A stretch of 56,042 nucleotides of DNA, taken from the NCBI GenBank assembly GCA_035506315.1, contig DATJPQ010000254.1:1-56042 (forward strand), in the 5' to 3' direction. Below the pieces are notes generated by a model. It worked only from the letters and a program-made list of their open reading frames with translations, made no database searches and was not told the DNA's origin. Position 1 is the first letter of the stretch. Each line of letters opens with the position of its first letter. The position numbers and the translations under genes were made by a program. This DNA is from Opitutaceae bacterium. GTDB lineage: Bacteria; Verrucomicrobiota; Verrucomicrobiia; Opitutales; Opitutaceae. This document shows, one piece after another, positions 9,490 through 56,042 of this stretch.

Positions 9490-12354
9490 ATGAATACCTC
9501 GGCCCGCGGCTTGGTTGGTTTTTTCCTGGCGTTGGCGGTGGGATTCGGTGCGACCGAATCCGGACTGCGTGAGCGACTCCTGCTGGATCCCGGCTGGCGA
9601 TTCCACCTCGGCAACGAGTGGGGTGCCGGCCAGAACTTGTCGAAAGCCGGCGCGGGCATCGGGCCGGCCAGCGTGGTTTTCAGCGATGCAACCTGGCGGT
9701 GCGTCGATTTGCCGCACGACTGGGCGGTAGAACTGCCGTTCGACTCCCGGGCCGACGGCGGGCACGGGTTCAAGGCGCTCGGCGAGGCCTTCCCGCAAAA
9801 CAGCATCGCCTGGTACCGGCGGACGTTCGAGCTGCCGAAGACCGACGCCGGCCGCCGGCTCTGGCTCGAATTCGACGGCGTGTTTCGCGACTGCACGGTG
9901 TTCGTCAACGGCTGGTTTGTCGGCCATCACGAGAGCGGCTACAGCGGCTGCCGCTACGATATCACCGATGTCGCCAACTGCGGCGGATCGAATGTGGTGG
10001 CAGTGCGGGTCGACGCCACCCAGACCGAAGGCTGGTTCTATGAAGGCGCGGGCATCTACCGGCACGTCTGGCTGGTGAAGACCGCGCCGCTCGCATTTGC
10101 GCCCGATGGCGTGTTCGCGTTCAGCCGTTTTCAGGACAACGTCCCGGAGGGACCGGCCGAGATCCACCTGCAGGCGCGGCTGGCGAACACCCGGAATGCG
10201 CCAGCCGACGCGACGGTGACGTGGACGATCGTGGCCCCGGGCGGCCAGGCGCTCGCGACCGCGCGGCAGACGGCGCGGATCGGCGCCGCCGCGGAAATCG
10301 AGATCGAGCAGACGGCCCGGCTCGATGCGCCGGAATTGTGGTCGCCGGAATCGCCGCGGCTCTACCGGGTTGTCACCACGATCGAGAGCGACGGCCACAC
10401 GATGGATCGCGTCGAGACGCCCCTCGGCATCCGCACGGTCGCCTGCGATCCGGAGAAGGGATTTTTGCTCAACGGCCGGCCCTACGTGCTCAAGGGCACA
10501 TGCAACCACCAGGATCACGCCGGCGTCGGCACGGCGCTGCCGGACCGGCTGCAGGATTTCCGCATCGCGCGGTTGAAGGCGATCGGCGCCAACGCGTATC
10601 GAACCGCCCACAACGCGCCCACGCCCGAGTTGCTCGAGGCCTGCGACCGCCTAGGCATGCTGGTGATGGATGAAAACCGGCTCCTGGGGAGCGACCGGCA
10701 GCATTTGCAGTGGTGCGAGGAGCAGGTGCGACGCGACCGCAACCATCCGAGTGTCGTGATGTGGTCGCTCGCCAATGAGGAATTCGGGGTGCAAGGCACG
10801 CCGGCCGGCGGTCGCGTGGCCGCGTCCATGCAGGCGCTGGTCAAGCGCCTCGATCCCACCCGGCCGGTGACCTACAACGCGCCCGTCGGAAATGAGTTTG
10901 CCGGCATCAACGAGGTCATCGAGGTGCGCGGCTGGAGTTACCACATCGGCGCGGAGAACATGGACGCCTACCACGCGGCGCATCCGCGCCAGCCCAACGT
11001 CGGCAGCGAACAGGGCAGCACGGTCAGTACGCGCGGCATCTACGCGAACGATCCGGCCCGCGGCTATGTGAGCGCGTATGACGACAATGCCACCAGCTGG
11101 TCGAACACCGCCGAGCAATGGTGGAGCTTCTTCGCCCCGCGGCCCTGGCTCGGGGGCGGCTTTGTCTGGACCGGTTTCGACTACCGCGGGGAACCGACAC
11201 CCTACAGCTGGCCGTGCATCAACTCGCACTTCGGAATCCTCGACACCTGCGGTTTTCCGAAGGACAACTTCTGGTACTACCGCGCATGGTGGACCAGCGA
11301 GCCGGTGCTGCACCTGCTGCCCCACTGGAATTGGCCCGGCCGCGAAGGGCAGGAGATCGACGTGCGGGCCTTGAGCAATTGCGAGGAAGTCGAGCTGTGG
11401 CTCAACGGCCAGAGCCTCGGCCGCCAGACCATGCCGCGCAATTCCGAGCTCAAATGGCGGGTCCGGTACGCGCCCGGCGTGCTTGCCGCGAAAGGCTTCA
11501 ACGGCGGGCGCGTCGTGGCCGAGACGAAGGTTGAAACCACGGGAGCTCCCGCAGGCGTGCAACTCACGCCCGACCGTGCGGCGATCGACGCCAACGGCGA
11601 GGATGTCTCGGTCGTGACCGTCGCCATCGCCGACGCCCAGGGTCGCATCGTACCGGGCGCCGGCGACTCCATCGCCTTCGAGCTCGCCGGGCCGGGCCGC
11701 ATTCTCGGCGTTGGCAACGGCGACCCGAGCTGCCACGAACCCGATGTCGTGGTGACGACCGCGCCGCTGCGAACGGTGCCGGTCGCGGATTGGCGCTGGA
11801 AGAAAATCGCCGACCCGTATGCCCCTAATTTGCCCGAGGCCGGAATTCAGTTCGACGACTCGGGCTGGGCGAAGCTGGACGTCAATACGGAGAGCGGTCC
11901 GCTCGGGTTGCACGAAAATGGTGTGCTCCGCGCCCGGTTCACGGTCACGGCGGAGGATCTTGCCTCGCCGGCCGTCGAGTTGTGGTTTGGCAAGATCGAC
12001 GGTGATGGCGCGGTTTACTTGAACGGCCAGCGGATCGGCAAAACGGGCGACCCGCGCGGCGCGTCGATCTACAACGTCAAGGCGCAGCTGCATCCCGGCG
12101 AGAACACGGTCGCCGTGACTCTCGCCAACTACGGTTCGGCCGCGGGCCTGAACCGCGGCGTGTGTCTGCGGTTCCAGGGGAAGCCGGCGCCGGTCTCATG
12201 GCGCCGCAGCGCTTTCAACGGTCTGGCGCAGATCATCGTTCAATCGACCCGCGAAGCCGGCGCGATCCGCCTGACGGCACGGGCCGAGGGGCTGCAGCCC
12301 GCGACGATCACGATTCGCTCCGAGGCGGCCCCGCTCCGGCCCATCGTGCCGTAG
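9490..12354 (+). CDS. GH2 glycoside hydrolase (beta-galactosidase-like), exported
   Basis: Signal peptide MNTSARGLVGFFLALAVGFGATES from ATG 9490. GH2 TIM-barrel motifs NHQDHAG, NAYRTAHN and HPSVVMWSLANEE. Long C-terminal beta-sandwich region. The ORF track's earlier GTG at 9400 would place 30 non-signal residues before the signal peptide. Confidence 0.85.
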   Translation: MNTSARGLVGFFLALAVGFGATESGLRERLLLDPGWRFHLGNEWGAGQNLSKAGAGIGPASVVFSDATWRCVDLPHDWAVELPFDSRADGGHGFKALGEAFPQNSIAWYRRTFELPKTDAGRRLWLEFDGVFRDCTVFVNGWFVGHHESGYSGCRYDITDVANCGGSNVVAVRVDATQTEGWFYEGAGIYRHVWLVKTAPLAFAPDGVFAFSRFQDNVPEGPAEIHLQARLANTRNAPADATVTWTIVAPGGQALATARQTARIGAAAEIEIEQTARLDAPELWSPESPRLYRVVTTIESDGHTMDRVETPLGIRTVACDPEKGFLLNGRPYVLKGTCNHQDHAGVGTALPDRLQDFRIARLKAIGANAYRTAHNAPTPELLEACDRLGMLVMDENRLLGSDRQHLQWCEEQVRRDRNHPSVVMWSLANEEFGVQGTPAGGRVAASMQALVKRLDPTRPVTYNAPVGNEFAGINEVIEVRGWSYHIGAENMDAYHAAHPRQPNVGSEQGSTVSTRGIYANDPARGYVSAYDDNATSWSNTAEQWWSFFAPRPWLGGGFVWTGFDYRGEPTPYSWPCINSHFGILDTCGFPKDNFWYYRAWWTSEPVLHLLPHWNWPGREGQEIDVRALSNCEEVELWLNGQSLGRQTMPRNSELKWRVRYAPGVLAAKGFNGGRVVAETKVETTGAPAGVQLTPDRAAIDANGEDVSVVTVAIADAQGRIVPGAGDSIAFELAGPGRILGVGNGDPSCHEPDVVVTTAPLRTVPVADWRWKKIADPYAPNLPEAGIQFDDSGWAKLDVNTESGPLGLHENGVLRARFTVTAEDLASPAVELWFGKIDGDGAVYLNGQRIGKTGDPRGASIYNVKAQLHPGENTVAVTLANYGSAAGLNRGVCLRFQGKPAPVSWRRSAFNGLAQIIVQSTREAGAIRLTARAEGLQPATITIRSEAAPLRPIVP

Positions 12355-46090: not shown

Positions 46091-48220
46091 CTATTGACGG
46101 AAGTAGTTGTGGAGCTTCAGGCGCAACGCTTCCATCTCGGCCGGGGTGAAGGCGAACTTCGCCTGATCGTGATTGGCCACGGGCCCGCCGTCGAAGATAA
46201 AGCTGAAGTCCGTCGCGCCATTGTGGGGAGGTACGCCCACCGAGCGATTGCCATGGCAGCCCATGCATCCGCCCATGTTGTTGGCCGTGCCGGCATGGTA
46301 GACGTTGTAGAACGGACTGGGCACCGCCGCCGTCGACGCATTTCTGACAACGGTTGTGGCGGGAGTCGGTGTCGTGTCCGTGTAGGTCACCGGGGCGAAG
46401 TAGTAGTCGGTGATATTGTTGCTTTGCCCGGCGAATTGCCCGCTGAAGCCCGAGAGCACGATGTTCGTCTCGATCATGCTGTTCGACTGGTAGTAGCTGG
46501 CCGGAGGCACGCCATTGATCGCCGTGGTCAAGGCCTGGCCGGAGGGCTTGTTGACCGGTTTCCACTGCACGTTGGTGAGGCGGTAGTTCAGCCAGATATT
46601 CGCAGCCTGCTGGTAGCCGTAGGTGGAGATCAAACCGTGAATACTGCGGTTGATATTGACGATCTCGTTCGGGATGAGGAACCGGCGGCGGTTGACGTCG
46701 AGATAGGGCGTGGAGGTGGGCGTCGGAGGGCCAATATTGTCGGCGGGGAGACCACTTTTCTGGGTGTTGATATAATAGGAACTGCTGCCCCCGGGGCCCA
46801 CGCCGGTGGAGCCGGTCGTTTCGTTCGGCACGAAGATCTCACCCTCGGGACTGCCGGCGGTGGCGAATTGCGTGAACACATTCGAGGTGGTCGGATCCTT
46901 GAGATATTGGCCGGGGGGCGGGTTGCCCTTGTTCACGTCACCCTGCAAGACATAGCCAGCGGGCGGCTGCGTCGGCACCGTGGCGCTGTAGGCGTTGGGG
47001 GTGAGCCCGCCGTTTTGGTCCTCGACCGCGTTGCCGGACTGGTTGCGGATGTTGCTCACGTGCTCGAACGTGGCGAAAATGAAGTAAGGGGCAGAGGGTG
47101 TCTTCTGGATGATGTGAAGACCGAGCAGAACGGCCGGCGCATCCACCGGCTTGGTGGGGTCCGCGACGAGAGCGCCGGGATTGGTCGTCGGCTGGCTGTC
47201 CGATGCGGCGACGGGGTAATATCGGACCATCGCCCAATGGTAGCCGGGCACCTGGCCGGTCTGCTGAAAAACGGCGGTTTCCTTGGTAGTGAGCAGCCGC
47301 CAGGCAGCCTTCACCTCGATCGTGCCATTGGGGAAGCTGATATACGGCCCCGGGTTCGACGGGGTGCCGAACTCCGCGCCGGGCGGAGGCAGCTTTTGGT
47401 TGGCCAGCACGTAGCCCGAGGTGTTGTTCTCGATCAGGCCCACCGCGCTCGAATTGGTATTCCACCACTGGCGCGAGGACACGTAGTTGTATTGCTTGCG
47501 ACTGGCCTTCGCGAGAAAGAGCACGAGCCTTCCGGGAAACTGAGTCGGCGCACCATCGCCGGCGGGGAGGCCAGCGAACATCTGGCACGTGCCAATCTGA
47601 CTGTTCTCGTCGAGGTTGACGAATGGAGCCGGCTTGGTGGAGCCGTTGTAGCCATAGCCGGGAGAGATGCCATTGGCGTAGTTGTATTGGGGGAAGGCGT
47701 CGAAACCGAAATCGAGATCGGCGTTGTTGACGTAGCCATTGGGCGGCAGGAGCATGCTGTTGGAGGTCAAACCGCCGTAGATTTCAGGCTTGTTGCGCAG
47801 GGTTTCCCAGACGAGCGCCGGGTAGGCGGCGGTTTGTCCGTTGACCAGGTAGGCGCCCGCCGGCTGGCCAAACTGCTTCGATCCGTCGGCCGTTTCGCGC
47901 GTGCCGAGGCTTCCGGTCACGGGCACATTGGGCCAGCTCAGGGCGATGAATTCCTGCCAGGCGAACAAGCTGGCCTCGGTGATCGTGGCCGATGCGGCGC
48001 CGCCCGGGATGTCGGACAGGGGAACGATGGAGCTCGGCCCGGACGTCGACAGCATGTTCTGGATGTTGGCTTGGATCGCGGCAGCGTTCGGACTGAGGGC
48101 GGAGGCACCCGCCGATGCGGTCGATTGAGCGTGCACGGTGGAGGAAACGAGGATCGCGGCGAGGGCAATGCCGGCCGCACGGGCAGCGTGGCGGCCGGAG
48201 TGAAAGGGTCTTGTCTTCAT
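46091..48220 (-). CDS. Secreted protein of unknown function, larger paralogue, C-terminal CXXCH motif (709 aa)
   Basis: Start placed at ATG 48220 (MKTRPFHSGRHAARAAGIALAAILVSSTVHAQ, signal peptide). The ORF-track extension to 48472 is Arg/Pro-rich and overlaps the upstream gene. CMGCH is encoded at 46253-46267. Confidence 0.65.
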   Translation of the reverse strand: MKTRPFHSGRHAARAAGIALAAILVSSTVHAQSTASAGASALSPNAAAIQANIQNMLSTSGPSSIVPLSDIPGGAASATITEASLFAWQEFIALSWPNVPVTGSLGTRETADGSKQFGQPAGAYLVNGQTAAYPALVWETLRNKPEIYGGLTSNSMLLPPNGYVNNADLDFGFDAFPQYNYANGISPGYGYNGSTKPAPFVNLDENSQIGTCQMFAGLPAGDGAPTQFPGRLVLFLAKASRKQYNYVSSRQWWNTNSSAVGLIENNTSGYVLANQKLPPPGAEFGTPSNPGPYISFPNGTIEVKAAWRLLTTKETAVFQQTGQVPGYHWAMVRYYPVAASDSQPTTNPGALVADPTKPVDAPAVLLGLHIIQKTPSAPYFIFATFEHVSNIRNQSGNAVEDQNGGLTPNAYSATVPTQPPAGYVLQGDVNKGNPPPGQYLKDPTTSNVFTQFATAGSPEGEIFVPNETTGSTGVGPGGSSSYYINTQKSGLPADNIGPPTPTSTPYLDVNRRRFLIPNEIVNINRSIHGLISTYGYQQAANIWLNYRLTNVQWKPVNKPSGQALTTAINGVPPASYYQSNSMIETNIVLSGFSGQFAGQSNNITDYYFAPVTYTDTTPTPATTVVRNASTAAVPSPFYNVYHAGTANNMGGCMGCHGNRSVGVPPHNGATDFSFIFDGGPVANHDQAKFAFTPAEMEALRLKLHNYFRQ

Positions 48221-48470
48221 TGTATGGTAGTTGAGAGGTTGGATTCGGTTGACGGTGGGGAGAGAAAGCCGGTCGCGAGGGCGGCCAGCGGATCGATCGT
48301 GTGCCCGGTGCGACGGGCGGGGATTGGGGCATGCGGCTAGGGCAAGGTTGTTTTCATGGTGATGGATGAGCTGAAAGGCAGGATTCGGTTCGGGTGGGAA
48401 CGAGGACGCCGGTCGCGAGGGCGGCCAGTTGCCCGATCGTGTGTGCGGCCCAACGGGCCGAAAAAGGCGC
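48211..48470. repeat. Imperfect ~137-bp tandem duplication spanning a gene junction, with relic start codon
   Basis: 48211-48335 aligns with 48348-48470. For example, ggattcggttgacggtgggg...ccggtcgcgagggcggccagcggatcgatcgtgtgcccgg aligns with ggattcggttcgggtgggaa...ccggtcgcgagggcggccagttgcccgatcgtgtgtgcgg. The relic ATGAAAACAACCTTGCCCTAG (48357-48337, minus strand) parallels the real start ATGAAGACAAGACCC at 48220. Confidence 0.7.
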
Positions 48471-50240
48471 ACGGGTGACGGTGAGGTTGCCGATGAGATT
48501 GCCCTCGGTGGGGATCCCGATCACGGCGATGTCCGGATTCGGTGTGCCGTCGGCTCCGACCACGCACTGGGTGTCAGGAGTCATGTCGATCGCGCCGGGG
48601 CGGTAGCCGCCGTTGGCAAACGGCCGGATGAGACCGCGCGCCAGGAGCGAACGCCCGAGCGGCGTCACGTCGCGTTCGACATGGTTGGGCGGATAGCGGG
48701 CGTCGATCAGGACGTCCGCGTCCGTGCGCACACCGTCGGGCAGACTGCTGCGCAATGCGAAACGTCCGCCGCCCGCGGGCAAGCTGACCTCCGGAGCGCG
48801 GGCGAATCCGAAATCGACGATCCCGGCGCGCGCCAGCGCGAGGATCTTTTCCGCGTTCTGCACCGGCGGGCCGAAGACCACGCGTTTGAACTGCGACGCG
48901 AATCCGCCGGCCACCGAACGCTGCGACTCCGGTGTGAGGCCGGCGAACTGCCAGACAGGCTGCAGGGCATAACGGACCTCATGCCAGATATCGATGGCGG
49001 CCTTGAGCGGCGAACCCCGGTGACCGGCGCGTGATCGTGCGATCTCGCAATCGAGGTAGGCGACGATCGCGTGGTGCAGCGCCGCCGCGGTCGCCGGGCA
49101 CCGGCCGGCCAGAGGATCGAGCACGGGAGCCGGATCGAAGGGAACCTGTCCGGGATGTTCGCGCCGATAGTCTGCGATCACCCGCCGCAGCGCCGCGGCA
49201 TCGTCCCCACCGGCTTCGAGCCGGTCCCGCCAGAGGCCGGGGCCCATCGCCGCCTGATAATAGGCGCGCGCCATCTCCAGCTCGACCAAGGGGAGCAGCT
49301 CACGCGCAAAATCGAGCTGGCGACCGTCCGCCCGGCGGCGCATCGCCTCCACGCGCGCCGGAGGCGTGAAGGTCAGCGGACGCAGGGCAACCGGGAGATC
49401 GACCGCTTTGGGAATCGCCGGCAGGCCCGAGCGGCTGAACGGCCGGATGACCCGGGGCTCGACGCCGGAGGCGCGGTAACGGAGCCCTCCCGTGGCCGGG
49501 CGCTCGAAGCGACCGCCGCGACCTTCGGTGAGAGCGAGGGCCGCGTCGATGAACGTCAGCCCCATCCCCTTCATCGCCACCTCCGCACCCGGCGCGATGT
49601 CGCGCAGGTTTGGCGTGACCGGGAACACGAACGGGACGAAACGCGCGCGCGACGAAGCGGCGGCAAACGCCGAACAGGCCCGGTCCGGCCCGGTGGGCGC
49701 GACGCGCGCGTGTCCGGTGGCGAGAAGAATCTTGTGCGCCACGATCCGGCGGCGCGCGCCATCGGCGGCCGCGAGCGTGATGACGTAGTGTCCGTCCTCC
49801 GGGATCAGGTCTTCCGCCTCGCCGACCTGCGGGCGCAGTTCGACGCCGGGAGGCACGTGGCGTTCCAGGTGCCGGAAACAATCGCGCAGGTAGCGCCCGA
49901 CCAGCGCGCGCGGCAGATATTCGCCGCCGGTGAGCGGGGCGGAGCCCGCCGCGCCCTGGCGGGCCTGCCAGGCGATGAAATTCGGTCCACGCCCGCCCAC
50001 GGGTGGAGGGTCTTCGTCGCCCCAGGCGTCGATGTCGGCGATGCTGTTGTTCGTGACGAGGTAGTCCGGCTGGTCGGTGGCGTAAACCGGACTCACACCG
50101 AACTCGGCGCCGCGATTGATGGCGTGCACGACCACCGGGACGGGCAGCGGCGCGGCCGCAAGTCCGGCGAGCAGCCGCTCGAGGCTGTGCAGCCCCTTGG
50201 GCCCGAGGCCGACGATGGCGATGGCGACCGTGTCGTTCAT
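48354..50240 (-). CDS. FAD/NAD(P)-binding Rossmann-fold oxidoreductase-like protein (628 aa)
   Basis: Start placed at ATG 50240 (MNDTVAIAIVGLGPKGLHSLERLL, with the GxGxxG dinucleotide-binding motif). It overlaps the upstream stop as ATGA. The ORF-track N-terminal extension to 51002 is an Arg/Pro-rich out-of-gene read-through. Confidence 0.55.
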   Translation of the reverse strand: MNDTVAIAIVGLGPKGLHSLERLLAGLAAAPLPVPVVVHAINRGAEFGVSPVYATDQPDYLVTNNSIADIDAWGDEDPPPVGGRGPNFIAWQARQGAAGSAPLTGGEYLPRALVGRYLRDCFRHLERHVPPGVELRPQVGEAEDLIPEDGHYVITLAAADGARRRIVAHKILLATGHARVAPTGPDRACSAFAAASSRARFVPFVFPVTPNLRDIAPGAEVAMKGMGLTFIDAALALTEGRGGRFERPATGGLRYRASGVEPRVIRPFSRSGLPAIPKAVDLPVALRPLTFTPPARVEAMRRRADGRQLDFARELLPLVELEMARAYYQAAMGPGLWRDRLEAGGDDAAALRRVIADYRREHPGQVPFDPAPVLDPLAGRCPATAAALHHAIVAYLDCEIARSRAGHRGSPLKAAIDIWHEVRYALQPVWQFAGLTPESQRSVAGGFASQFKRVVFGPPVQNAEKILALARAGIVDFGFARAPEVSLPAGGGRFALRSSLPDGVRTDADVLIDARYPPNHVERDVTPLGRSLLARGLIRPFANGGYRPGAIDMTPDTQCVVGADGTPNPDIAVIGIPTEGNLIGNLTVTRAPFSARWAAHTIGQLAALATGVLVPTRTESCLSAHPSP

Positions 50241-51427
50241 AGGATCGAGGCGAGCGAATGAAGGCCGTAGCGTTGCGGACAGCTGGTCGTCCCCAGGTCG
50301 GAACCGGTGAAACGCGTGCCGTCCAGATAGGTGCGGTGGAGTTTGGCCTGGCTCCAGCGGAGCACTTCGTCGATGGCCGGGGTTCCGACTCCGGCGAGTT
50401 CGGCCACGCCACGGATCGGCACGAGTCCGAACGGCACATCCTCGCTCAGGAAACGGCTCTGGAAATCCGGCATCCATCCGCCGGCCGCGGCGCGCACCAT
50501 CGGGTGCGTCATCGTCTGGTAGGCGTGGTTCGTGCGCAGCGCCGTGAACTGGGTTGAAGGGTCGGCGATCTCCGCGCCATACGCGAGGCGGTCCCACTGG
50601 AGCATGGGAATGACCGCGGTGAGATCCTTGCGCGGAAAACGCTCCGCGATCCGGTCGCGGATGGTGAGGACCTCGTCGCTCATGCGGGTCATCAGGCCGG
50701 CGGTTTCGCGGCTGATGCCCTGGTAAAACACGGGCGGCTCGGCCAGCGGCCGGCCGTCCCAATCCCGCCACGCGCCATACATGATCGGCGGGTGGCTGTA
50801 GGCGTTGACCGACATGAGCGTGATCGCGAGCAGGCTGGGCGACTCGACCACGCGCGTTTGAGGGCCGGCGATGCGCCGGATCAGCCCGAACGGATCCTTG
50901 ATGCGGGCGCGGGTGAGGTCGCCGCGCAGGGCCCCGGTGAGGTAGGTCTTCGCCCCGCAAATCTGGACCAGCCGTCCGAAACGGAGCACGCGGCACGCCC
51001 ACGGCGCCGACTCGAAGTTCATCACGATGACCGGCCGGTGCGCGAGGTGCCGGGCCACTTCACACTCGAAACCGCCCTGGCCGGGAAAGCCGACCAGCAC
51101 CGCGCCGGCCGCGATGTGCGGGGCGAGAAGCGCGAGGTATTCGCCGAGGACAAAAGCGGTGACGGCGGTGAAGATCAGGTCGCAGCCGCGCGCGATGGCG
51201 GGATCGTCCGACACGAGCACGCGTCCGGCGCGCGCGGCTTCGCGGGCCTGGCCGTTGATTCCCTGGATGACCACGAGGCCGCCGTGGGCCGCCTCCTCCC
51301 GCCAGCTGGCGGCCTTCCCGGCATTTTGGGTGAAGAGACGCACTTCGAACCCGGGGTCGGCGCTGAGCAATCCGGCCAGCACATGGGCGGTGTTGCCACT
51401 GCCGCAAACGAGGATCCGGCTAGTCAT
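50237..51427 (-). CDS. NAD(P)-dependent opine (octopine/nopaline) dehydrogenase family protein (396 aa)
   Basis: Start placed at ATG 51427 (MTSRILVCGSGNTAHVLAGLLS, the Rossmann GxGxxA typical of this family). The length and C-terminal helical domain are consistent with the family. The start overlaps the upstream VOC gene by 8 nt. Confidence 0.55.
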   Translation of the reverse strand: MTSRILVCGSGNTAHVLAGLLSADPGFEVRLFTQNAGKAASWREEAAHGGLVVIQGINGQAREAARAGRVLVSDDPAIARGCDLIFTAVTAFVLGEYLALLAPHIAAGAVLVGFPGQGGFECEVARHLAHRPVIVMNFESAPWACRVLRFGRLVQICGAKTYLTGALRGDLTRARIKDPFGLIRRIAGPQTRVVESPSLLAITLMSVNAYSHPPIMYGAWRDWDGRPLAEPPVFYQGISRETAGLMTRMSDEVLTIRDRIAERFPRKDLTAVIPMLQWDRLAYGAEIADPSTQFTALRTNHAYQTMTHPMVRAAAGGWMPDFQSRFLSEDVPFGLVPIRGVAELAGVGTPAIDEVLRWSQAKLHRTYLDGTRFTGSDLGTTSCPQRYGLHSLASIL

Positions 51428-51926
51428 GGCCCGGGGGAGTCGGCGGTCGTTTGAGTTGGGTTTGATCGACCGCGAAAATCGGATGAGCGAATTTCCACCG
51501 GTGGCCCTCCGGGTCGACGGCTTCGTAAACCCGCTCGCCGTGCCACTGGTCGGCCGGGGCGAACGTGATCCGTGCGCCGGCGGCGATCGCGCGGGCATGA
51601 TGGGCGTCGACATCGTCGACGTAGATGAAGAGGCGGTGCATTATCTGCCCCCCGAGGTCGAGCGGGCTCGCCCAGTGGGCATGCTCGCGCGCGAGACCGA
51701 GCATCACGAGGCCGTCGTGGAGCTCGAGTTCGGCATGGACGACGAGGCCCGTGTCATCGGCGATGCGCAGGCGGCAGTTGAAGCCAAAAGCCCCGGCCAG
51801 CCAGTCGGCCGCCGCGGCCACATCGCGGTAGAAGAGGTGCGGGACGATGCGCGGCATGCCGGGCGGCGGGTTGGGCAGGGGCGATCGGGAAGCGGAGGAG
51901 GTTGTGCTGGAAGCAATGGTGGACAT
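51420..51926 (-). CDS. VOC (glyoxalase/bleomycin-resistance/dioxygenase) fold protein
   Basis: ~145-168 aa. The pattern IVPHLFYRDVAAAADWLAGAFGF...HAELELHDGLVMLG...LFIYVDDVDAHHARAIAAGARI...YEAVDPEGHRWKF is typical of small VOC proteins. The start could be 51926 or 51857. Confidence 0.6.
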   Translation of the reverse strand: MSTIASSTTSSASRSPLPNPPPGMPRIVPHLFYRDVAAAADWLAGAFGFNCRLRIADDTGLVVHAELELHDGLVMLGLAREHAHWASPLDLGGQIMHRLFIYVDDVDAHHARAIAAGARITFAPADQWHGERVYEAVDPEGHRWKFAHPIFAVDQTQLKRPPTPPGHD

Positions 51927-51937
51927 GGGAAAGGAGA

Positions 51938-52984
51938 CTAAGTCCGGTGGCGGGGCGAAGCGGCGATCAGGGCGCCCAACTCGAGCACGAGCGCGGCGGC
52001 GAGCAGGGAAGTGATCTGACCCGGCGAGTCGTAGGCCGGGGCAACCTCCACGACGTCGGCACCGACGACGTTCAAGCCCTTGAACTCGCGCAGCAGGGCC
52101 AGCGCTTCATAACTCGTGAAGCCGCCGGGGACGGGCGTGCCGGTTCCGGGCGCGAAAGCCGGATCGACGCCGTCGATGTCGAACGTGAGGTAGCACGGAC
52201 CGTCGCCGGCCTGCCGGCGCAAACGCGCGAGAAAGGCCGCGCGCCCGGCGGGATCGTGGGCGCCGCACATGGTCAGCAGGCTGATGCCCTGCTCCTCGGC
52301 AAAGCGGAAGTAGTCGCGGGTGCCGACCGAGCCACGGAGGCCGATCTGGAACACGCGATGGCCGGCGACCGACTCCTCGGCTATGGCGTCGCGCACGCAA
52401 GTGCCGTGGTGCCGCCAGGGCGGGCCGCCGGCATCGGTCGTGTCGAAATGCGCGTCGATCTGGATCAGAGTCAGCCCGGCGTGGCGCCGGCTCGTGGCGC
52501 GGAGGATCGGCACGAGCACGGAGTGGTCGCCACCCAGTGCAATCACATCCGCGCCCGCGTCGTGGAGTTCCGTCACGCAGGCCGCGATGCGCTCCATCGT
52601 TTCCGCCGGATCGCCCGTCCTGACGGCGACATCGCCGGCGTCGCGACCGGGCAGGCGGCCAAAGACCTCCACGCCCATCAGCAACGAATGGCTGCGGCAC
52701 AGCCGCGAGGCTTCGCGGATGGCTGTCGGACCGGCGCTGGCGCCTCTGCGGCAGGTGACGGAACCATCCCACGGGATGCCGAGGACCGCCAGTTGTCCGC
52801 CGCGAACGCGGTTGCCCGGCGTGTTTGTCGCGACCAGGGCCGGCAGCTGCATGAACGTGTCGCTGGCGGGCGTCCGGTCCGGCCGGAGACCGGACGAGGC
52901 GCGGGGAGCCGTGGCGGGCGGGGGCATGGCCGCGGCATGGCTCGTGGCAGGGCTTGGAAGCGGGAGGCGTGGCGGCGCATTCAT
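51938..52984 (-). CDS. Arginase/agmatinase/guanidino-acid hydrolase (ureohydrolase) family protein
   Basis: Metal-binding motifs of the arginase family: ALGGDHSV, IDAHFDT, LTFDIDGVDPAFAPGTGTP, DVVEVAP. Start placed at ATG 52984, overlapping the pstB-fusion stop as ATGA. The longest ORF runs to 53029. Confidence 0.75.
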   Translation of the reverse strand: MNAPPRLPLPSPATSHAAAMPPPATAPRASSGLRPDRTPASDTFMQLPALVATNTPGNRVRGGQLAVLGIPWDGSVTCRRGASAGPTAIREASRLCRSHSLLMGVEVFGRLPGRDAGDVAVRTGDPAETMERIAACVTELHDAGADVIALGGDHSVLVPILRATSRRHAGLTLIQIDAHFDTTDAGGPPWRHHGTCVRDAIAEESVAGHRVFQIGLRGSVGTRDYFRFAEEQGISLLTMCGAHDPAGRAAFLARLRRQAGDGPCYLTFDIDGVDPAFAPGTGTPVPGGFTSYEALALLREFKGLNVVGADVVEVAPAYDSPGQITSLLAAALVLELGALIAASPRHRT

Positions 52985-54252
52985 GCGGATGGCCTCGCGG
53001 GGTATTGGGGCGCAGCGTGCAGGCGCCAACGGACGAGTTCCTTGATGCGTCCGGCGACGTGGCAGGGAAACTCAAGGTCACCCTCGCGCGGATCCTCCAA
53101 GTCATCGACGGGGTCGAGCGGCTGGATCTTGCCGGTGTGGGCCGGATATTGCCGGGCCAGCGTCTCGCACTGGCCGCGCGTCATGCAGAAGACGATGTCG
53201 GCCTGTTCCAGCATTTCGGCGGTAATCGGGCGGGAGGCATGGCCGCCGTGGGCGAGATCCATCTTTTCCAGCACACGGCGCGCGGCCGGGTTGGGCGGGA
53301 GTCCGTCGATGGTGGAGGAGCTGGCGTTCCAGGCGTTTTCGTCCGGCTGCTCCCCCGCGTCGGCGCAGCCGCCGGGCAGACCGGAGATCTCCTCGCGGCC
53401 GATGGCCTGCGCCATGAGCGAATGGCGGTTGTGGCCCGGGCCGATGACCAGGAATTTCTTGTCCAGAATCTGCGCGGCGGTCGTCGGGCGCTGGTCAACG
53501 ATCGCGCCCATGCCGATGAAGCGCCGCACGCCCTCGTCGGCGGCCGCGTGCAGAATCGCCGGCAACGGACCAAACTCGGCGAGGCGGCCTCCGCGTTCGC
53601 CGCGCAGCATGAACCCGGCGCGATCGCCGACGCGCTCGGCGAGTGCGACCTTGTGCGTGACCATGACGATGAGGCGTTCGCGCGCGAGGGTGCGGACCAG
53701 TCTTTCGATCTGGATGCTGCTGATCGGGTCGAGCGCCGAAGTCGGCTCGTCCATCAGCAGAACCTCCGGTTGTAACGCGACCGCGCGGGCGATGGCGAGC
53801 CGTTGCTGCTGGCCGCCCGACAAATTGCGGGCCGGCGCATCCAGGCTCAGCTCCCGCGCTAGCCCGACATCCTCGAGCACATGCTCGGCGATGCCGCGAA
53901 TCTCCCGCCGGGCGGTGCGGCCGTCGTGCCGCAGGCCGAATTCCACATTGGCGCGCACGCTGCCCATGAGCATGGCGGGCAATTGCTGGATGTAGCCGAC
54001 CCGGCGGGTGAGCTCCCGCCGGGGCCCGGCGAAAATGCTGCGGCCGTCCAGCAGGATGTCGCCCGAGCGCGTCCAGCCGTCCACGCCGCCCTCGATGAGC
54101 CGCTGGGTGGCCTTCAGCAACGAGCTTTTGCCGACGCCGGACGGGCCGAGCAGGATCACGACGCCGGGTCCGGTGAGGTCGAGATCGACGGCCTCGATGA
54201 CCGGTCGGCGGGCGACCGCGAGCGCCAGCTGCTGGTAACGGAGGTGGATCAT
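52981..54252 (-). CDS. pstB: PstB-like phosphate ABC transporter ATPase fused to a C-terminal LMW-PTP/ArsC-like domain with degenerate P-loop
   Basis: ATPase part: Walker A GPSGVGKSS, PstB-type signature LSGGQQQRLAIARA, Walker B LLMDEPTSALD, H-loop VTH. The C-terminal ~160 aa align by eye to the LMW-PTP fold (FLVIGPGHNRHSLMAQAI versus consensus VCxGNxCRSPMAEA; ...ADIVFCMT...; LEDPREG versus DPY/F). The start ATG 54252 overlaps the pstA stop (ATGA). Confidence 0.75.
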   Translation of the reverse strand: MIHLRYQQLALAVARRPVIEAVDLDLTGPGVVILLGPSGVGKSSLLKATQRLIEGGVDGWTRSGDILLDGRSIFAGPRRELTRRVGYIQQLPAMLMGSVRANVEFGLRHDGRTARREIRGIAEHVLEDVGLARELSLDAPARNLSGGQQQRLAIARAVALQPEVLLMDEPTSALDPISSIQIERLVRTLARERLIVMVTHKVALAERVGDRAGFMLRGERGGRLAEFGPLPAILHAAADEGVRRFIGMGAIVDQRPTTAAQILDKKFLVIGPGHNRHSLMAQAIGREEISGLPGGCADAGEQPDENAWNASSSTIDGLPPNPAARRVLEKMDLAHGGHASRPITAEMLEQADIVFCMTRGQCETLARQYPAHTGKIQPLDPVDDLEDPREGDLEFPCHVAGRIKELVRWRLHAAPQYPARPSA

Positions 54253-55055
54253 CCCGCGAACCTCTGCTCCCCCTGCGCCCACGAGACCGCCAGCTGCACC
54301 AATGCCGCGAGCGCGAAGAGGAGCGCGGCGGCGGCATAGGCGGCCTGCTGCCCACCGGGAACGCTGGTGAGCAAGTGGAAGATATATACCGCCAGCGTCG
54401 CCGCCGAATCGAAGCACGAATGCGGGATCGAGGCGGCCACGCCGGACGTGAACAACAACGCGGCGGCATCGCCCAGGCCCCGCCCCGCCGCGAGCGCCGC
54501 CGTGGCGGTGAGCGCCGGGCGCGCCGCGGGCACGATCTGCCGCCAGACCGTCGCCCAACGGCTCGTCCCGAGGGCACGGCACTGCTCGGCGAGCGCCGGA
54601 TCGACGGCGCTGAGTCCGGAGATGAACCCGGCCGTCATGATCGGCGCCATCAGGCAGGCCAGCGTCAGGACGCCCGTGGCGACGGAGAACCCGAATCCCA
54701 GTACGCCGCCGAACAGCGCCGCGCCGAACAAGCCCCACACGATGCGGGGCACGCCGATGCCGATGTTGAGCACAATGTGGGAGAAGCGCCCGAACCACGC
54801 CGGGCGCCGCATCTCGGTGATGAACACCGCCGCCGGCAAACTCAGGGCCGTCGCCAGCAGCGTGGCCGCGCCCACGACGATGCCGGTCGAAACCAGGACC
54901 GGGCCGATCCCGCCGCCGCGCCCGAGGTCGCGGGGCTCGCGCACCAGATAGCCGGGGCGGAATCCCGCCGCGCCGCGCACGAATAAATCGACGCCGATCC
55001 CGATCGTCAGCGCGACGAGCAGCGCCGTGGCCAGGGCACCCGCCACCCGGATCAT
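54249..55055 (-). CDS. pstA: PstA-like phosphate ABC transporter permease
   Basis: 268 aa from ATG 55055 (MIRVAGALATALLVALTIG...). Hydrophobic. PstA-type motif GRGLGDAAALLFTSG and ALGTSRWATVWRQIVP. ATGA overlap with the pstC stop. Confidence 0.75.
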   Translation of the reverse strand: MIRVAGALATALLVALTIGIGVDLFVRGAAGFRPGYLVREPRDLGRGGGIGPVLVSTGIVVGAATLLATALSLPAAVFITEMRRPAWFGRFSHIVLNIGIGVPRIVWGLFGAALFGGVLGFGFSVATGVLTLACLMAPIMTAGFISGLSAVDPALAEQCRALGTSRWATVWRQIVPAARPALTATAALAAGRGLGDAAALLFTSGVAASIPHSCFDSAATLAVYIFHLLTSVPGGQQAAYAAAALLFALAALVQLAVSWAQGEQRFAG

Positions 55056-55873
55056 CTGACCTCCTCCCTGATTTGGTTGAGGCGCACCAGATTGGCAGTG
55101 GCAACGAGCAACATCGTCAGCGCAGCCAGGAAAAATAGCGCCTGCCGGTGCGCCCCGGAAGAGCCATCGTAGTCCACGATCAGCGTCGTGGTCAGCGTGG
55201 AAAATGGCCGCGCCAGACTCCACGGCCAGTTGGGCACATTGCCGGCCACCATGCTGATCGCCACCGCCTCGCCCACGGCCCGGCTCGTGGCCAGCAGGGC
55301 GGCTGCAAACACGCCGCGCCGCGCCCGCGCGAGCAGCACGCGCGTGACCGCCGCCTCGCCCACCGGCAGGGCGCGGCTGGTCTCCACGAGTTTGGCCGGG
55401 ACCTGTCGCAACGCCGCGCCCGCGAGGAGCGCGAACGTGGGCGTGATCATCACCGCAAGCACGATGACGGCGGATGCGAGCGAGTTGCCCAGGAGCGGCA
55501 CGACCCAGGTCATGCCCCACAGGCCGATCACGACCGACGGCACGCTGCCCAGCAGGCCGATCGCGGCGTCACATGCGCGCCGCACGCCGGCGCCCGCATA
55601 CAGGGCCAGATAAACCGCCGTCGCCAGACCCACGGGCAGGGCCAGCGTCAGCGCCAGCCCACCGGCCACCGCCGTGCCGGCCGCCAGCGACCACACTCCG
55701 AAGTTCCCGGAGTGCGGCGCCCAGTGCCAGCCGCCCAGGCTCCATCCCAGTTCGACCAGCGCCCGGCCACCGACGAGCCCCAGAAATGCCGCCAGCGCGA
55801 GTCCCGCCCACAGCGGGCCGGTCCCCAGCGCGCCGAGCGCGGCCCAACGGCCAGACTCAGAGGATCGGGACAT
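55052..55873 (-). CDS. pstC: PstC-like phosphate ABC transporter permease
   Basis: 273 aa. Motifs SGNFGVWSLAAGT, GSVPSVVIGLWG and SRAVGEAVAISMVAGN as in PstC. The start overlaps the end of the upstream binding-protein gene by 17 nt. Confidence 0.75.
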   Translation of the reverse strand: MSRSSESGRWAALGALGTGPLWAGLALAAFLGLVGGRALVELGWSLGGWHWAPHSGNFGVWSLAAGTAVAGGLALTLALPVGLATAVYLALYAGAGVRRACDAAIGLLGSVPSVVIGLWGMTWVVPLLGNSLASAVIVLAVMITPTFALLAGAALRQVPAKLVETSRALPVGEAAVTRVLLARARRGVFAAALLATSRAVGEAVAISMVAGNVPNWPWSLARPFSTLTTTLIVDYDGSSGAHRQALFFLAALTMLLVATANLVRLNQIREEVR

Positions 55874-56042
55874 ACTTCGCCTCCCGGATGATCTGCTGGC
55901 CGTCCTTGCTGTGGAAAAAATCGATCAGCACGCGGCCCTGTGCGCTGGGGGCGCCCCTGGCGATGAGGTAGAGCTGGCGGAACATCGGATACGTTTTGTC
56001 CGCGATGTGCGCCAGGGTGGGCTCGATGCCGTCGAGGGTCAG
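55857..56042 (-). CDS. pstS: Phosphate-binding protein (PstS/PhoT family), C-terminal fragment truncated by the window edge
   Basis: The last 61 codons read LTLDGIEPTLAHIADKTYPMFRQLYLIARGAPSAQGRVLIDFFHSKDGQQIIREAKYVPIL*, which resembles the C-terminus of PstS-type periplasmic binding proteins. It is not in the ORF track because it is partial. Confidence 0.6.
   Translation of the reverse strand: MTLDGIEPTLAHIADKTYPMFRQLYLIARGAPSAQGRVLIDFFHSKDGQQIIREAKYVPIL

What the first reader, a model, noticed from the sequence alone, without database searches (positions are those of the whole stretch)
52981..54252. PstB ATPase fused to a Cys-less, Arg-shifted LMW-PTP/ArsC-like pseudo-phosphatase domain
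Seen: after a complete PstB-type ATPase (GPSGVGKSS, LSGGQQQR, LLMDEPTSALD) the same ORF continues for ~160 aa. This tail aligns by eye with low-molecular-weight phosphatases (YwlE/ArsC fold). The P-loop reads G-P-G-H-N-R-H-S where the family consensus is C-x-G-N-x-C-R-S, so the nucleophilic Cys is missing and the Arg is displaced. A DP-type motif (LEDPREG) is retained.

Established: the C-terminal regulatory domains of other ABC importer ATPases (MetN, ModC, MalK) mediate trans-inhibition by substrate. PhoU normally couples Pst to signalling and is absent here.

Inference: this may be an oxyanion- or phospho-ligand-sensing regulatory domain that replaces PhoU-type control.
Basis: partly seen in the sequence, partly recalled or inferred. 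Interest (0 to 1): 0.62.

Follow-up and report, generated by a model that had tools for sequence, protein, structure and literature searches.

The report
Transporter ATPase with dead phosphatase tail
The motor subunit of an accessory phosphate-type uptake pump in this wetland bacterium carries a fused small phosphatase domain that is real but has lost every catalytic residue; it is a decaying offshoot of a larger, unstudied family in which the same fused phosphatase is intact.

Summary
Evidence for the fold: Pfam LMWPc scores above its cut-off, the AlphaFold model has pLDDT 87, and the best fold matches are YwlE-type phosphatases. Contigs from four metagenome runs, two other assemblies and about 75 database clusters show the same fusion, so it is not a frameshift.

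The tail is a pseudo-phosphatase, but it does not look like a tuned oxyanion sensor.
- About 75 related fused proteins keep an intact C-x-x-N-T-S-R-S-P loop. Only the window's small clade lost the Cys.
- Close relatives show stepwise decay: GSGNNSRSP, then GSGDNSQSP, then GPGHNRHSL in the window.
- Against an 84%-identical relative, dN/dS is about 1.0 in the tail, 0.26 in the ATPase domain and 0.22 in pstA.
- The system is an accessory, divergent Pst-like importer, absent from all relatives sampled.
- Congeners have a normal pstB-phoU locus. In this draft genome that locus probably lies just beyond a contig end, so "replaces PhoU" is unsupported.

Most likely the tail is an inactivated relic with, at most, a structural role.

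The parts
52984..54252 (-). Complete CDS of the fused protein (423 aa; stop codon at 52981-52983)
   Evidence: The frame is confirmed by four metagenome runs, by L009 and by L036.
53503..54252 (-). PstB-like ABC ATPase domain, residues 1-250. Walker A is at 54121-54147, the LSGGQ signature at 53800-53823, and Walker B/D-loop at 53728-53760.
   Evidence: PF00005 E 7e-25 and TIGR00972 188 bits against a cut-off of 343. The model's best PDB match is E. coli PstB 9k3s_C, TM 0.92. dN/dS is 0.26 against L036.
53458..53502 (-). Inter-domain linker, residues 251-265
   Evidence: pLDDT falls to 58 for residues 251-260 in the full-length model. Linker length varies among fused relatives.
53005..53457 (-). 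LMW-PTP/YwlE-fold pseudo-phosphatase domain, residues 266-416
   Evidence: PF01451 33.8-36.5 bits, above the cut-off of 23.2. AlphaFold pLDDT 86.6, pTM 0.82. Foldseek top hits are YwlE 4pic and 4etn. dN/dS is 1.02.
53419..53442 (-). Degenerate P-loop G-P-G-H-N-R-H-S (residues 271-278), where intact relatives have C-G-E/G-N-T-S-R-S
   Evidence: N274H, S276R, R277H and P279L arose in the window's own lineage.
53314..53328 (-). N-A-S-S-S (residues 309-313), replacing the near-invariant S-A-G-L loop of the family
   Evidence: S309N, G311S and L312S are derived in the window lineage.
53080..53097 (-). E-D-P-R-E-G (residues 386-391): the retained Asp-Pro general-acid loop
   Evidence: P0003 also keeps it. 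P0004 keeps the Asp but has lost the Pro.
53020..53037 (-). L-V-R-W-R-L in the last helix: a signature of the fused family that is kept in the dead clade
   Evidence: The helix spans residues 394-416 in the model.
54249..55055 (-). pstA-like permease (268 aa). Its stop overlaps the ATPase start as ATGA.
   Evidence: TIGR00974 132.6 bits against a cut-off of 193. The overlap is read. dN/dS is 0.22 against L036.
55052..55873 (-). pstC-like permease (273 aa)
   Evidence: TIGR02138 137.4 bits against a cut-off of 196.
55857..56042 (-). C-terminal fragment of the PstS-like binding protein, cut by the contig end
   Evidence: PBP_like_2 and TIGR02136. The full 294-aa orthologue is on L009.
51938..52984 (-). 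Arginase/agmatinase-family gene (348 aa). Its ATG overlaps the stop of the fused gene as ATGA.
   Evidence: PF00491 262 bits and TIGR01230 199.8 bits, above the cut-off of 174. L009 calls the same 348-aa product.

Best explanation
What it is
The gene encodes the ATPase subunit of an accessory, divergent Pst-like ABC importer (binding protein, two permeases, ATPase). It belongs to a distinct clade of PstB-like ATPases that ancestrally carry a C-terminal YwlE-type low-molecular-weight phosphatase domain.

How the tail came to its present state
- In most members the domain has an intact catalytic loop, C-x-x-N-T-S-R-S-P.
- In the common ancestor of the window's small clade the nucleophilic Cys became Gly, which kills Cys-dependent catalysis.
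- The fold was then kept for a long time: 44-52% identity to the most distant dead member.
- In the window's own lineage almost every remaining active-site signature has since been replaced: Asn, Arg and Pro of the P-loop, the helix Cys, and the S-A-G-L loop.
- The tail now evolves at about the neutral rate, while the ATPase domain and the permease stay under purifying selection.

How it works now
The protein works as an ordinary ABC motor. The tail is a folded, catalytically dead relic. Any remaining role is structural, for example a C-terminal appendage on the nucleotide-binding dimer held by the conserved second half and last helix. It is not anion sensing through the P-loop.

Basis
- Shown: the fusion, the fold, the loss of catalytic residues, the relaxed selection and the accessory status.
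- Inferred: no phosphatase activity, and a structural-only role.
For: The fusion is real.

Fold and homology
- Pfam LMWPc is above its cut-off.
- The profile of the fused tails matches YwlE-type structures at 1e-16 to 1e-18.
- The tail model has pLDDT 86.6 and matches YwlE and other LMW-PTPs at TM 0.7-0.88.

Family context
- About 75 clusters of 401-477 aa combine PF00005 and PF01451.
- Of the 78 fused proteins aligned, all but P0001, P0003 and P0004 keep C..N..RSP. P0002, the 99.8%-identical copy of P0001, was not in that alignment.
- In the ATPase-domain tree the fused family is a clade (support 98/94) separate from canonical PstB (100/100). The dead clade is monophyletic (97/92).

Decay and relaxed selection
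- The decay series runs GSGNNSRSP (L036), GSGDNSQSP (P0003), GPGHNRHSL (window).
- Ten substitutions specific to the window lineage fall at positions at least 95% conserved in intact members.
- dN/dS (Nei-Gojobori) against L036: ATPase domain 0.26, pstA 0.22, tail 1.02.
- The tail fits neutral expectation (p=0.88). The ATPase domain does not (p=3e-7). The two differ (Fisher p=3e-4).

Accessory status
- All four transporter components score below their equivalog cut-offs.
- The tail was not found in 60 relatives. In 400 genomes of the phylum no other tail-profile match scored above 92 bits, against 234 bits for the window's own genome.
- Congeners have a canonical pstB-phoU locus.
Against: - The tail has stayed in frame and alignable in all four dead-clade sequences, down to 44% identity. 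Blocks such as ADIVFCMTRGQCETLARQYP, KIQPLDP and RIKELVRWRL are strongly conserved. Some constraint, and therefore some function, persisted long after catalytic death.
- The dN/dS estimate rests on one pairwise comparison of 134 codons (61 differences). It lacks the last 39 codons.
- Tails of intact family members also evolve faster than their ATPase domains. The median ratio of differences is 1.4, with a maximum of 2.8 at similar divergence. The window/P0003 pair at 2.67 is at the high end, not off the scale.
- G-x-G-x-x-x-x-S/T is retained, so backbone amides could still cradle an anion.
- No biochemical data exist.
Confidence: 0.6

Rival explanations
1. Regulatory sensor. The dead phosphatase pocket binds cytoplasmic phosphate, arsenate or a phospho-ligand and trans-inhibits the importer, as the C-terminal domains of MetN, ModC and MalK do. 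It thereby takes over the PhoU role.
For: - No phoU was found next to any fused-family operon examined or in the draft genome.
- The fold is retained, with the G-x-G-x-x-x-x-S backbone and the Asp-Pro loop.
- The closest relative, L036, has only Cys-to-Gly with the Arg kept. This resembles substrate-trapping STYX-type pseudophosphatases (the comparison is from my own knowledge).
- Other notes from this scan report dead LMW-PTP/ArsC-like domains fused to PhoU in other pst operons. These are unchecked leads, not evidence.
Against: - The P-loop is the most variable part among close relatives, and the Arg was lost three separate times.
- Tail dN/dS is about 1, and 1.76 across the P-loop-to-SAG stretch.
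- About 75 related fusions keep a catalytic loop, so the domain's ancestral job was enzymatic.
- Congeners have a canonical pstB-phoU locus. Its flank runs off a contig end in this genome, so PhoU is probably present but unassembled.
Confidence: 0.17
2. Neofunctionalised pocket. The window lineage replaced the Cys/Asn/Arg pocket with a His/Arg-lined one (H274, R276, H277) that binds a new ligand or metal, or uses His as a nucleophile. On this view the high dN/dS reflects positive selection rather than decay.
For: - dN/dS is 1.76 for residues 266-320.
- Two His and one Arg were gained within eight residues, in the window lineage only.
- The operon differs from those of intact relatives: arginase-family, VOC, opine-dehydrogenase and flavoprotein genes are translationally coupled downstream.
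Against: - A dN/dS of 1.76 is not significantly above 1 (26 non-synonymous against 5 synonymous differences, p=0.40).
- The changes also hit structural positions outside the pocket (F269V, C285G, L312S, G332D). That pattern fits general relaxation better.
- No relative shares the His/Arg pattern.
Confidence: 0.07
3. Artefact. Two separate genes (pstB and a small phosphatase-like gene) were joined by a sequencing or assembly frameshift, or by a chimeric contig.
For: None found. The idea arises only because the genome is a fragmented metagenome-assembled draft (326 contigs).
Against: - Contigs from four runs are identical across the junction, with no indels.
- Independent assemblies L009 and L036, and the protein P0003, show the same frame.
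- About 75 clusters have the same architecture.
Confidence: 0.01

Closest known systems
Uncharacterised PstB::LMW-phosphatase fusion family (about 75 clusters at 90% identity; for example the 'ATP-binding cassette domain-containing protein' of Candidatus Entotheonella palauensis, P0208, and MAG proteins labelled Verrucomicrobiota and Acidobacteriota)
   Same: - Same two-domain architecture and length (401-477 aa).
- Same operon core: PBP_like_2 binding protein, two permeases of about 270 aa, then the fused ATPase.
- Same ATPase clade in the tree.
- Same family signatures: FCMT..QC, LDP, VRWRL.

   Different: - Those proteins keep C-x-x-N-T-S-R-S-P and S-A-G-L. The window has lost all of them.
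- The window's clade is sister to all the others.
- The window's clade is linked to VOC, opine-dehydrogenase and flavoprotein genes.
PstB of the E. coli PstSCAB phosphate importer (cryo-EM 9k3s/9k3x; TIGR00972)
   Same: - ABC fold with TM 0.92 and rmsd 1.8 A over 247 columns at 33% identity.
- All ATPase motifs are present.
- It is encoded after pstS, pstC and pstA homologues.

   Different: - 188 bits against an equivalog cut-off of 343.
- A separate clade from canonical PstB (100/100).
- An extra 170-aa tail, and no phoU downstream.
- The family's binding protein has A-E-G-H-A-T where solved PstS proteins have x-G-S-G-T/S.

YwlE protein arginine phosphatase / bacterial LMW-PTPs (B. subtilis 4kk3, 4etn; Geobacillus 4pic)
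   Same: - Best sequence-profile and fold matches for the tail.
- Intact family members carry Thr at P-loop position 5, the residue reported to favour phosphoarginine in YwlE (PMC7772506, read).
   Different: - The window tail lacks the Cys, Asn and Arg of the loop.
- It is fused to an ABC ATPase.
- It carries an insertion of about 13 residues after helix 1 and a longer last helix.
C-terminal regulatory domains of the ABC importer ATPases MetN, ModC and MalK
   Same: An extra domain C-terminal to the nucleotide-binding domain of a type I importer. In those systems it mediates trans-inhibition or regulator binding (established knowledge).
   Different: - A different fold. No TOBE or C2/ACT-type match was found: Pfam finds only LMWPc, and no PDB chain covers both domains.
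- No evidence here for ligand binding.
- The putative pocket is decaying.
STYX-type pseudophosphatases (Cys-to-Gly in the CX5R loop)
   Same: Cys-to-Gly replacement in a Cys-based phosphatase fold. The relative L036 (G-S-G-N-N-S-R-S) is exactly of this kind (the comparison is from my own knowledge).
   Different: - STYX keeps the Arg and binds phospho-proteins. The window has also lost Arg, Asn and the S-A-G loop.
- STYX belongs to a different phosphatase superfamily (dual-specificity fold).
Thioredoxin-coupled arsenate reductase ArsC (S. aureus pI258, 1ljl; TIGR02691)
   Same: The same broad LMW-PTP fold. Pst systems are the known entry route for arsenate (established knowledge), so a functional link is conceivable for the intact family.
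   Different: - A weak match: 17.5 bits against a cut-off of 174, profile E 1e-7, TM 0.55-0.59.
- The first Cys of the relay is absent.
- The genome has its own ArsC-type gene on contig C241.

Membership tests
ABC transporter ATPase (PF00005) | Walker A, Q-loop, LSGGQ signature, Walker B plus D-loop, and H-loop His | tested here: met
   GPSGVGKSS, LSGGQQQR, LLMDEPTSALD and VTHK are all present. PF00005 E 7e-25.
PstB equivalog (TIGR00972) | Score above the curated cut-off of 343.2 bits | tested here: not met
   187.9-189.6 bits. Congeners have true PstB at 372-410 bits.
PstB equivalog (TIGR00972) | Encoded with PstS, PstC and PstA in one operon | tested here: inconclusive
   The gene order pstS-pstC-pstA-ATPase is present. 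Each component scores below its equivalog cut-off: PstC 137 against 196, PstA 133 against 193, PstS 140 against 207.
PstB equivalog (TIGR00972) | Groups with canonical PstB in a tree | tested here: not met
   The fused family forms a clade separated from six canonical PstB sequences by a 100/100 branch.
LMW-PTP / LMWPc (PF01451) | Sequence match above the Pfam gathering score | tested here: met
   33.8 bits (whole protein) and 36.5 bits (tail alone) against 23.2. The match covers profile positions 29-140 only.
LMW-PTP / LMWPc (PF01451) | Four-stranded parallel sheet with flanking helices (the LMW-PTP fold) | tested here: met
   The model has pLDDT 86.6 and pTM 0.82. Foldseek against YwlE, Wzb and other LMW-PTPs gives TM 0.70-0.88 and rmsd 1.9-2.8 A.
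LMW-PTP / LMWPc (PF01451) | Catalytic loop C-x-x-N-x-x-R-S/T (Cys nucleophile, Arg) | tested here: not met
   The window has G-P-G-H-N-R-H-S: Cys to Gly, Asn to His, Arg to His.
LMW-PTP / LMWPc (PF01451) | General-acid Asp in an Asp-Pro loop | tested here: met
   D387-P388 within LEDPREG aligns with the family's D-P.
LMW-PTP / LMWPc (PF01451) | Phosphatase activity | not testable with these tools
   Requires an enzyme assay. Predicted absent from the sequence.
Arsenate reductase ArsC, thioredoxin type (TIGR02691) | Score above the cut-off, and the Cys10/Cys82/Cys89 relay | tested here: not met
   17.5 bits against 174.3. The first Cys is absent. The family's Cys356 and Cys362 are offset from the ArsC positions by eye.
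PhoU (PF01895) | PhoU repeat domain in the protein or in the operon | tested here: not met
   No PhoU match in P0001, in the neighbouring genes or in the draft genome.
TOBE or MetN-C2 type regulatory tails of ABC importers | TOBE or ACT-like fold C-terminal to the nucleotide-binding domain | tested here: not met
   Pfam finds only LMWPc in the tail. The full-length model matches MalK, MetN and ModC only through the ATPase domain.

The most novel reading that the evidence does not exclude
The fused phosphatase may mark an unrecognised class of Pst-like importers whose cargo is not plain orthophosphate.
- The family's binding proteins share a remodelled anion pocket: A-E-G-H-A-T/L where solved PstS proteins have x-G-S-G-T/S, plus G-G-S-T-R-G.
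- The ATPase-tethered YwlE-like domain, with Thr at P-loop position 5, would process the cargo as it leaves the channel. Candidate reactions are P-N or P-O hydrolysis of a phospho-guanidino or other organophosphate, or arsenate reduction.
- The window's clade would then be a natural experiment. After a change of substrate or pathway, marked by the coupling to arginase-family, VOC, opine-dehydrogenase and flavoprotein genes, the enzyme step became unnecessary and the domain is being dismantled.
Probability: 0.15. Interest if true: 0.75.

Novelty: new variant of a known kind. Interest (0 to 1): 0.45.

Why it matters
- ABC importer ATPases are known to carry regulatory C-terminal domains. A phosphatase-fold tail on a PstB-like motor was described in no paper I could find.
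- The fusion is nevertheless present in about 75 database clusters from soil, wetland, sponge-symbiont and other metagenomes.
- The window's gene adds a dated natural knockout of that domain's chemistry. The transporter core stays under selection while the phosphatase pocket decays. This says the catalytic step is dispensable in this operon context.
- The dead clade is therefore a useful comparison for working out what the intact domain does.
- It also warns against reading "no phoU here" from a draft genome: the canonical pst-phoU locus probably lies just past a contig end.

Tried and rejected
- A word-indexed search restricted to the tail found only two close relatives. This first suggested an extremely rare fusion. 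The profile search corrected that.
- The pattern scan of 185,579 species genomes with the 8-sequence tail alignment failed because no stretch was conserved enough. With the 3-sequence alignment it returned only distant, unfused LMW-PTP genes in Planctomycetota, Acidobacteriota and Verrucomicrobiota.
- ArsC identity was considered because arsenate enters through Pst. It was rejected for the window: the scores are weak and the first Cys is missing.
- I considered that the unfused ATPases P0276-P0278 ('THKV' motif) might be sisters of the dead clade, which would suggest complete tail loss. The tree places them among the intact fused proteins instead.
- Three literature searches found no paper describing the fusion.
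- Model coordinates and PAE are not available to scripts. I could not measure pocket geometry or judge the inter-domain contact.
- One context look-up (P0042) failed because the machine did not answer.
- No DNA was available for P0003. L036 was used for codon analysis instead.
Full report
**1. What is at the coordinates**

The minus strand carries one ORF from ATG 54252 to the stop at 52981-52983. It encodes 423 aa.
- Residues 1-250 hold all ABC ATPase motifs (PF00005, E 7e-25). The best NCBIfam model is PstB (TIGR00972) at 188 bits, well under the cut-off of 343.
- Residues 266-416 match Pfam LMWPc (PF01451) at 33.8-36.5 bits, above the cut-off of 23.2. The match covers only profile positions 29-140, because the P-loop part no longer aligns.
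GPGHNRHS is at residues 271-278 and EDPREG at 386-391.

**2. The fusion is real**

- Logan contigs from four wetland metagenome runs cover the domain junction (53503) and the P-loop (53419-53442) with no differences and no indels. One of the runs may be the source sample.
- JGI contig L009 (sample 3300032893) encodes a 99.8%-identical 423-aa protein in the same gene order.
- P0003 (82% identical, also 423 aa) and L036 (84% identical) have the same continuous frame.

**3. The fold**

- A 57-sequence alignment gave a tail model with pLDDT 86.6 and pTM 0.82.
- The best PDB fold matches are YwlE arginine phosphatases (4pic, 4etn, 4kk3) and other LMW-PTPs such as Wzb, with TM 0.70-0.88. ArsC of pI258 is clearly weaker, at TM 0.55-0.59.
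- A sequence profile of the fused tails gives the same ranking: YwlE-type 1e-16 to 1e-18, ArsC 1e-7.
- The full-length model (pLDDT 89.4, pTM 0.73) shows two folded domains joined by a low-confidence linker.
- Its best PDB match is E. coli PstB in the PstSCAB cryo-EM structure (9k3s_C, TM 0.92). That match covers the ATPase domain only, and no solved chain covers both domains.

**4. The wider family**

An exhaustive search with the tail and a profile search with eight fused proteins showed that the architecture is not unique.
- About 75 clusters (at 90% identity) of 401-477 aa combine PF00005 with PF01451.
- Sources label some of them Candidatus Entotheonella palauensis, Verrucomicrobiota and Acidobacteriota.
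- Every context I fetched has the same core: a PBP_like_2 binding protein, two permeases of about 270 aa, then the fused ATPase. None has phoU beside it.
- Of the 78 fused proteins aligned, all but P0001, P0003 and P0004 have an intact loop, typically Y-L-F-V-C-G-E-N-T-S-R-S-P.
- Position 5 of that loop is Thr. This is the residue reported to give YwlE its phosphoarginine preference (PMC7772506).
- In a tree of the ATPase domains the fused family is a clade (98/94), separated from canonical PstB by a 100/100 branch. The three dead sequences form a clade (97/92) that is sister to all intact members.
- Because the LMW-PTP superfamily at large has the Cys/Arg loop, the dead state is the derived one.

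**5. Decay of the pocket**

L036 reads F-I-G-S-G-N-N-S-R-S-P, so only the Cys is lost. The series is then:
- intact: CGGNTSRSP
- L036: GSGNNSRSP
- P0003: GSGDNSQSP
- window: GPGHNRHSL
- P0004, the distant dead member: GTGNSTQTP

All four dead sequences share Gly at the Cys position, which points to one ancient loss. The Arg was lost separately in P0004, in P0003 and in the window.

I polarised the window/L036 differences using P0004 and the intact consensus. The window lineage alone changed ten positions that are at least 95% conserved in intact members: F269V, N274H, S276R, R277H, P279L, C285G, S309N, G311S, L312S and G332D.

dN/dS (Nei-Gojobori), window against L036:

| Region | dN/dS |
|---|---|
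| ATPase domain, codons 1-250 | 0.26 |
| pstA, 268 codons | 0.22 |
| Tail, codons 251-384 | 1.02 |
| Tail, codons 266-320 (P-loop to SAG) | 1.76 |
| Tail, codons 321-384 | 0.80 |

The tail fits neutral expectation (p=0.88). The ATPase domain does not (p=3e-7). The two differ (Fisher p=3e-4).

Two caveats apply.
- This is one pairwise comparison with 61 differences.
- Tails of intact members also evolve faster than their ATPase domains (median ratio of differences 1.4, maximum 2.8). The window/P0003 ratio of 2.67 is at the high end, not off the scale.

Over the longer term the dead tails keep 44-52% identity and conserved blocks: ADIVFCMTRGQCETLARQYP, KIQPLDP and RIKELVRWRL. The fold was therefore maintained long after catalytic death.

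**6. Is it the cell's phosphate system, and is PhoU replaced?**

- PstB, PstC, PstA and PstS all score far below their equivalog cut-offs.
- The family's binding proteins share A-E-G-H-A-T/L where five solved PstS proteins have x-G-S-G-T/S-R, plus other pocket changes. By inference, orthophosphate is not assured as the cargo.
- The tail is absent from 60 relatives, including six congeners and about 30 genera of the family.
- In 400 genomes of the phylum no match exceeds 92 bits, against 234 bits for the window's own genome.
- The operon region has 69-71% G+C, against 58-68% in the rest of the window.
- Congeners carry a canonical pstB (372-410 bits) directly beside phoU.
- This 92%-complete draft has neither. 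However, its contig C13 ends inside the gene that lies about 1.4 kb from phoU in congener G003.
- The housekeeping pst-phoU locus is therefore probably unassembled rather than lost, and 'replaces PhoU' has no support.

**7. Operon**

- ATGA overlaps join pstC to pstA, pstA to the fused gene, and the fused gene to an arginase/agmatinase-family gene.
- Downstream follow a VOC/glyoxalase gene, an opine-dehydrogenase-like gene and an FAD-NAD(P)-binding gene.
- The distant dead member P0004 (L026) has the same VOC, opine-dehydrogenase and flavoprotein set, with a nitroreductase in place of the arginase.
- Intact members lack this set. L034 does have a VOC gene and a nitroreductase nearby.

**8. Reading**

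- Most likely (0.6): the tail is an inactivated, decaying remnant of an ancestrally active fused YwlE-type phosphatase. At most it keeps a structural role, and the protein works as a plain ABC motor of an accessory importer.
- The sensor hypothesis (0.17) is weakened by the variability of the pocket.
- A neofunctionalised His/Arg pocket (0.07) is not excluded.
- An artefact is excluded.
- The function of the intact domain in the wider family, and the cargo of these importers, remain open. They are the more interesting questions.

Noticed in passing
L009:3345-4226; L033:7569-8390; L034:1720-2577 (orthologues of the binding protein truncated at window 55857-56042): Binding proteins of the fused family are 50-55% identical to each other. 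They share A-E-G-H-A-T/L, G-A-S-T-V-Y-P and G-G-S-T-R-G-F, where five solved PstS proteins have x-G-S-G-T/S-R, G-S-T-S/A and G-S-x-x-G. The anion pocket looks remodelled, so the cargo may not be orthophosphate.
   Followed up: partly
window 48354-52984 (-) and L026:2127-6321: A VOC/glyoxalase, opine-dehydrogenase-like and FAD-NAD(P)-binding gene set follows the fused ATPase, with overlapping stops and starts. This holds both in the window and in the 57%-identical relative on L026. The first downstream gene differs: arginase family in the window, nitroreductase on L026. An Acidobacteriota member (L034) also has a VOC gene and a nitroreductase near the transporter.
   Followed up: partly
P0119 / L049:1211-2872; P0165, P0171, P0172; P0157, P0164, P0181, P0194; P0011, P0020: The same LMW-phosphatase subfamily (C-G-G-N-T-S-R-S-P ... 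C-M-T ... L-V-R-x-R-L) is also fused to other partners. These are an ABC ATPase with a TOBE-like insert that sits beside a single permease, unidentified membrane domains, and Sua5/YrdC.
   Followed up: partly
G000 contig C13, end at 11223: The contig ends inside a gene that is 90% identical to the one lying about 1.4 kb from phoU-pstB in congener G003 (L032:6558-8009). The canonical pst-phoU locus of this organism is probably in an assembly or binning gap.
   Followed up: yes
G000 C100:12464-13069 (+) and C241:14749-15636 (-): The genome has its own stand-alone intact LMW-PTP (V-V-C-T-A-N-I-C-R-S-P) and an ArsC-type gene (I-L-C-T-G-N-S-C-R-S-Q). Both chemistries are therefore available in trans.
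   Followed up: no
P0276, P0277, P0278: Unfused ATPases of 268-285 aa (54-60% identical to the window's ATPase domain) nest among intact fused proteins in the tree. This suggests secondary loss or splitting off of the tail in some lineages.
   Followed up: partly
window 48001-56000: The operon region has 69-71% G+C against 58-68% elsewhere in the window. The fused gene is absent from all relatives sampled. Together these suggest horizontal acquisition.
   Followed up: partly
P0206-P0255 (major intact clade): In the largest intact clade the general-acid loop reads N-V-E-D-S rather than D-P: the Pro is replaced by Ser while the Asp is kept.
   Followed up: no
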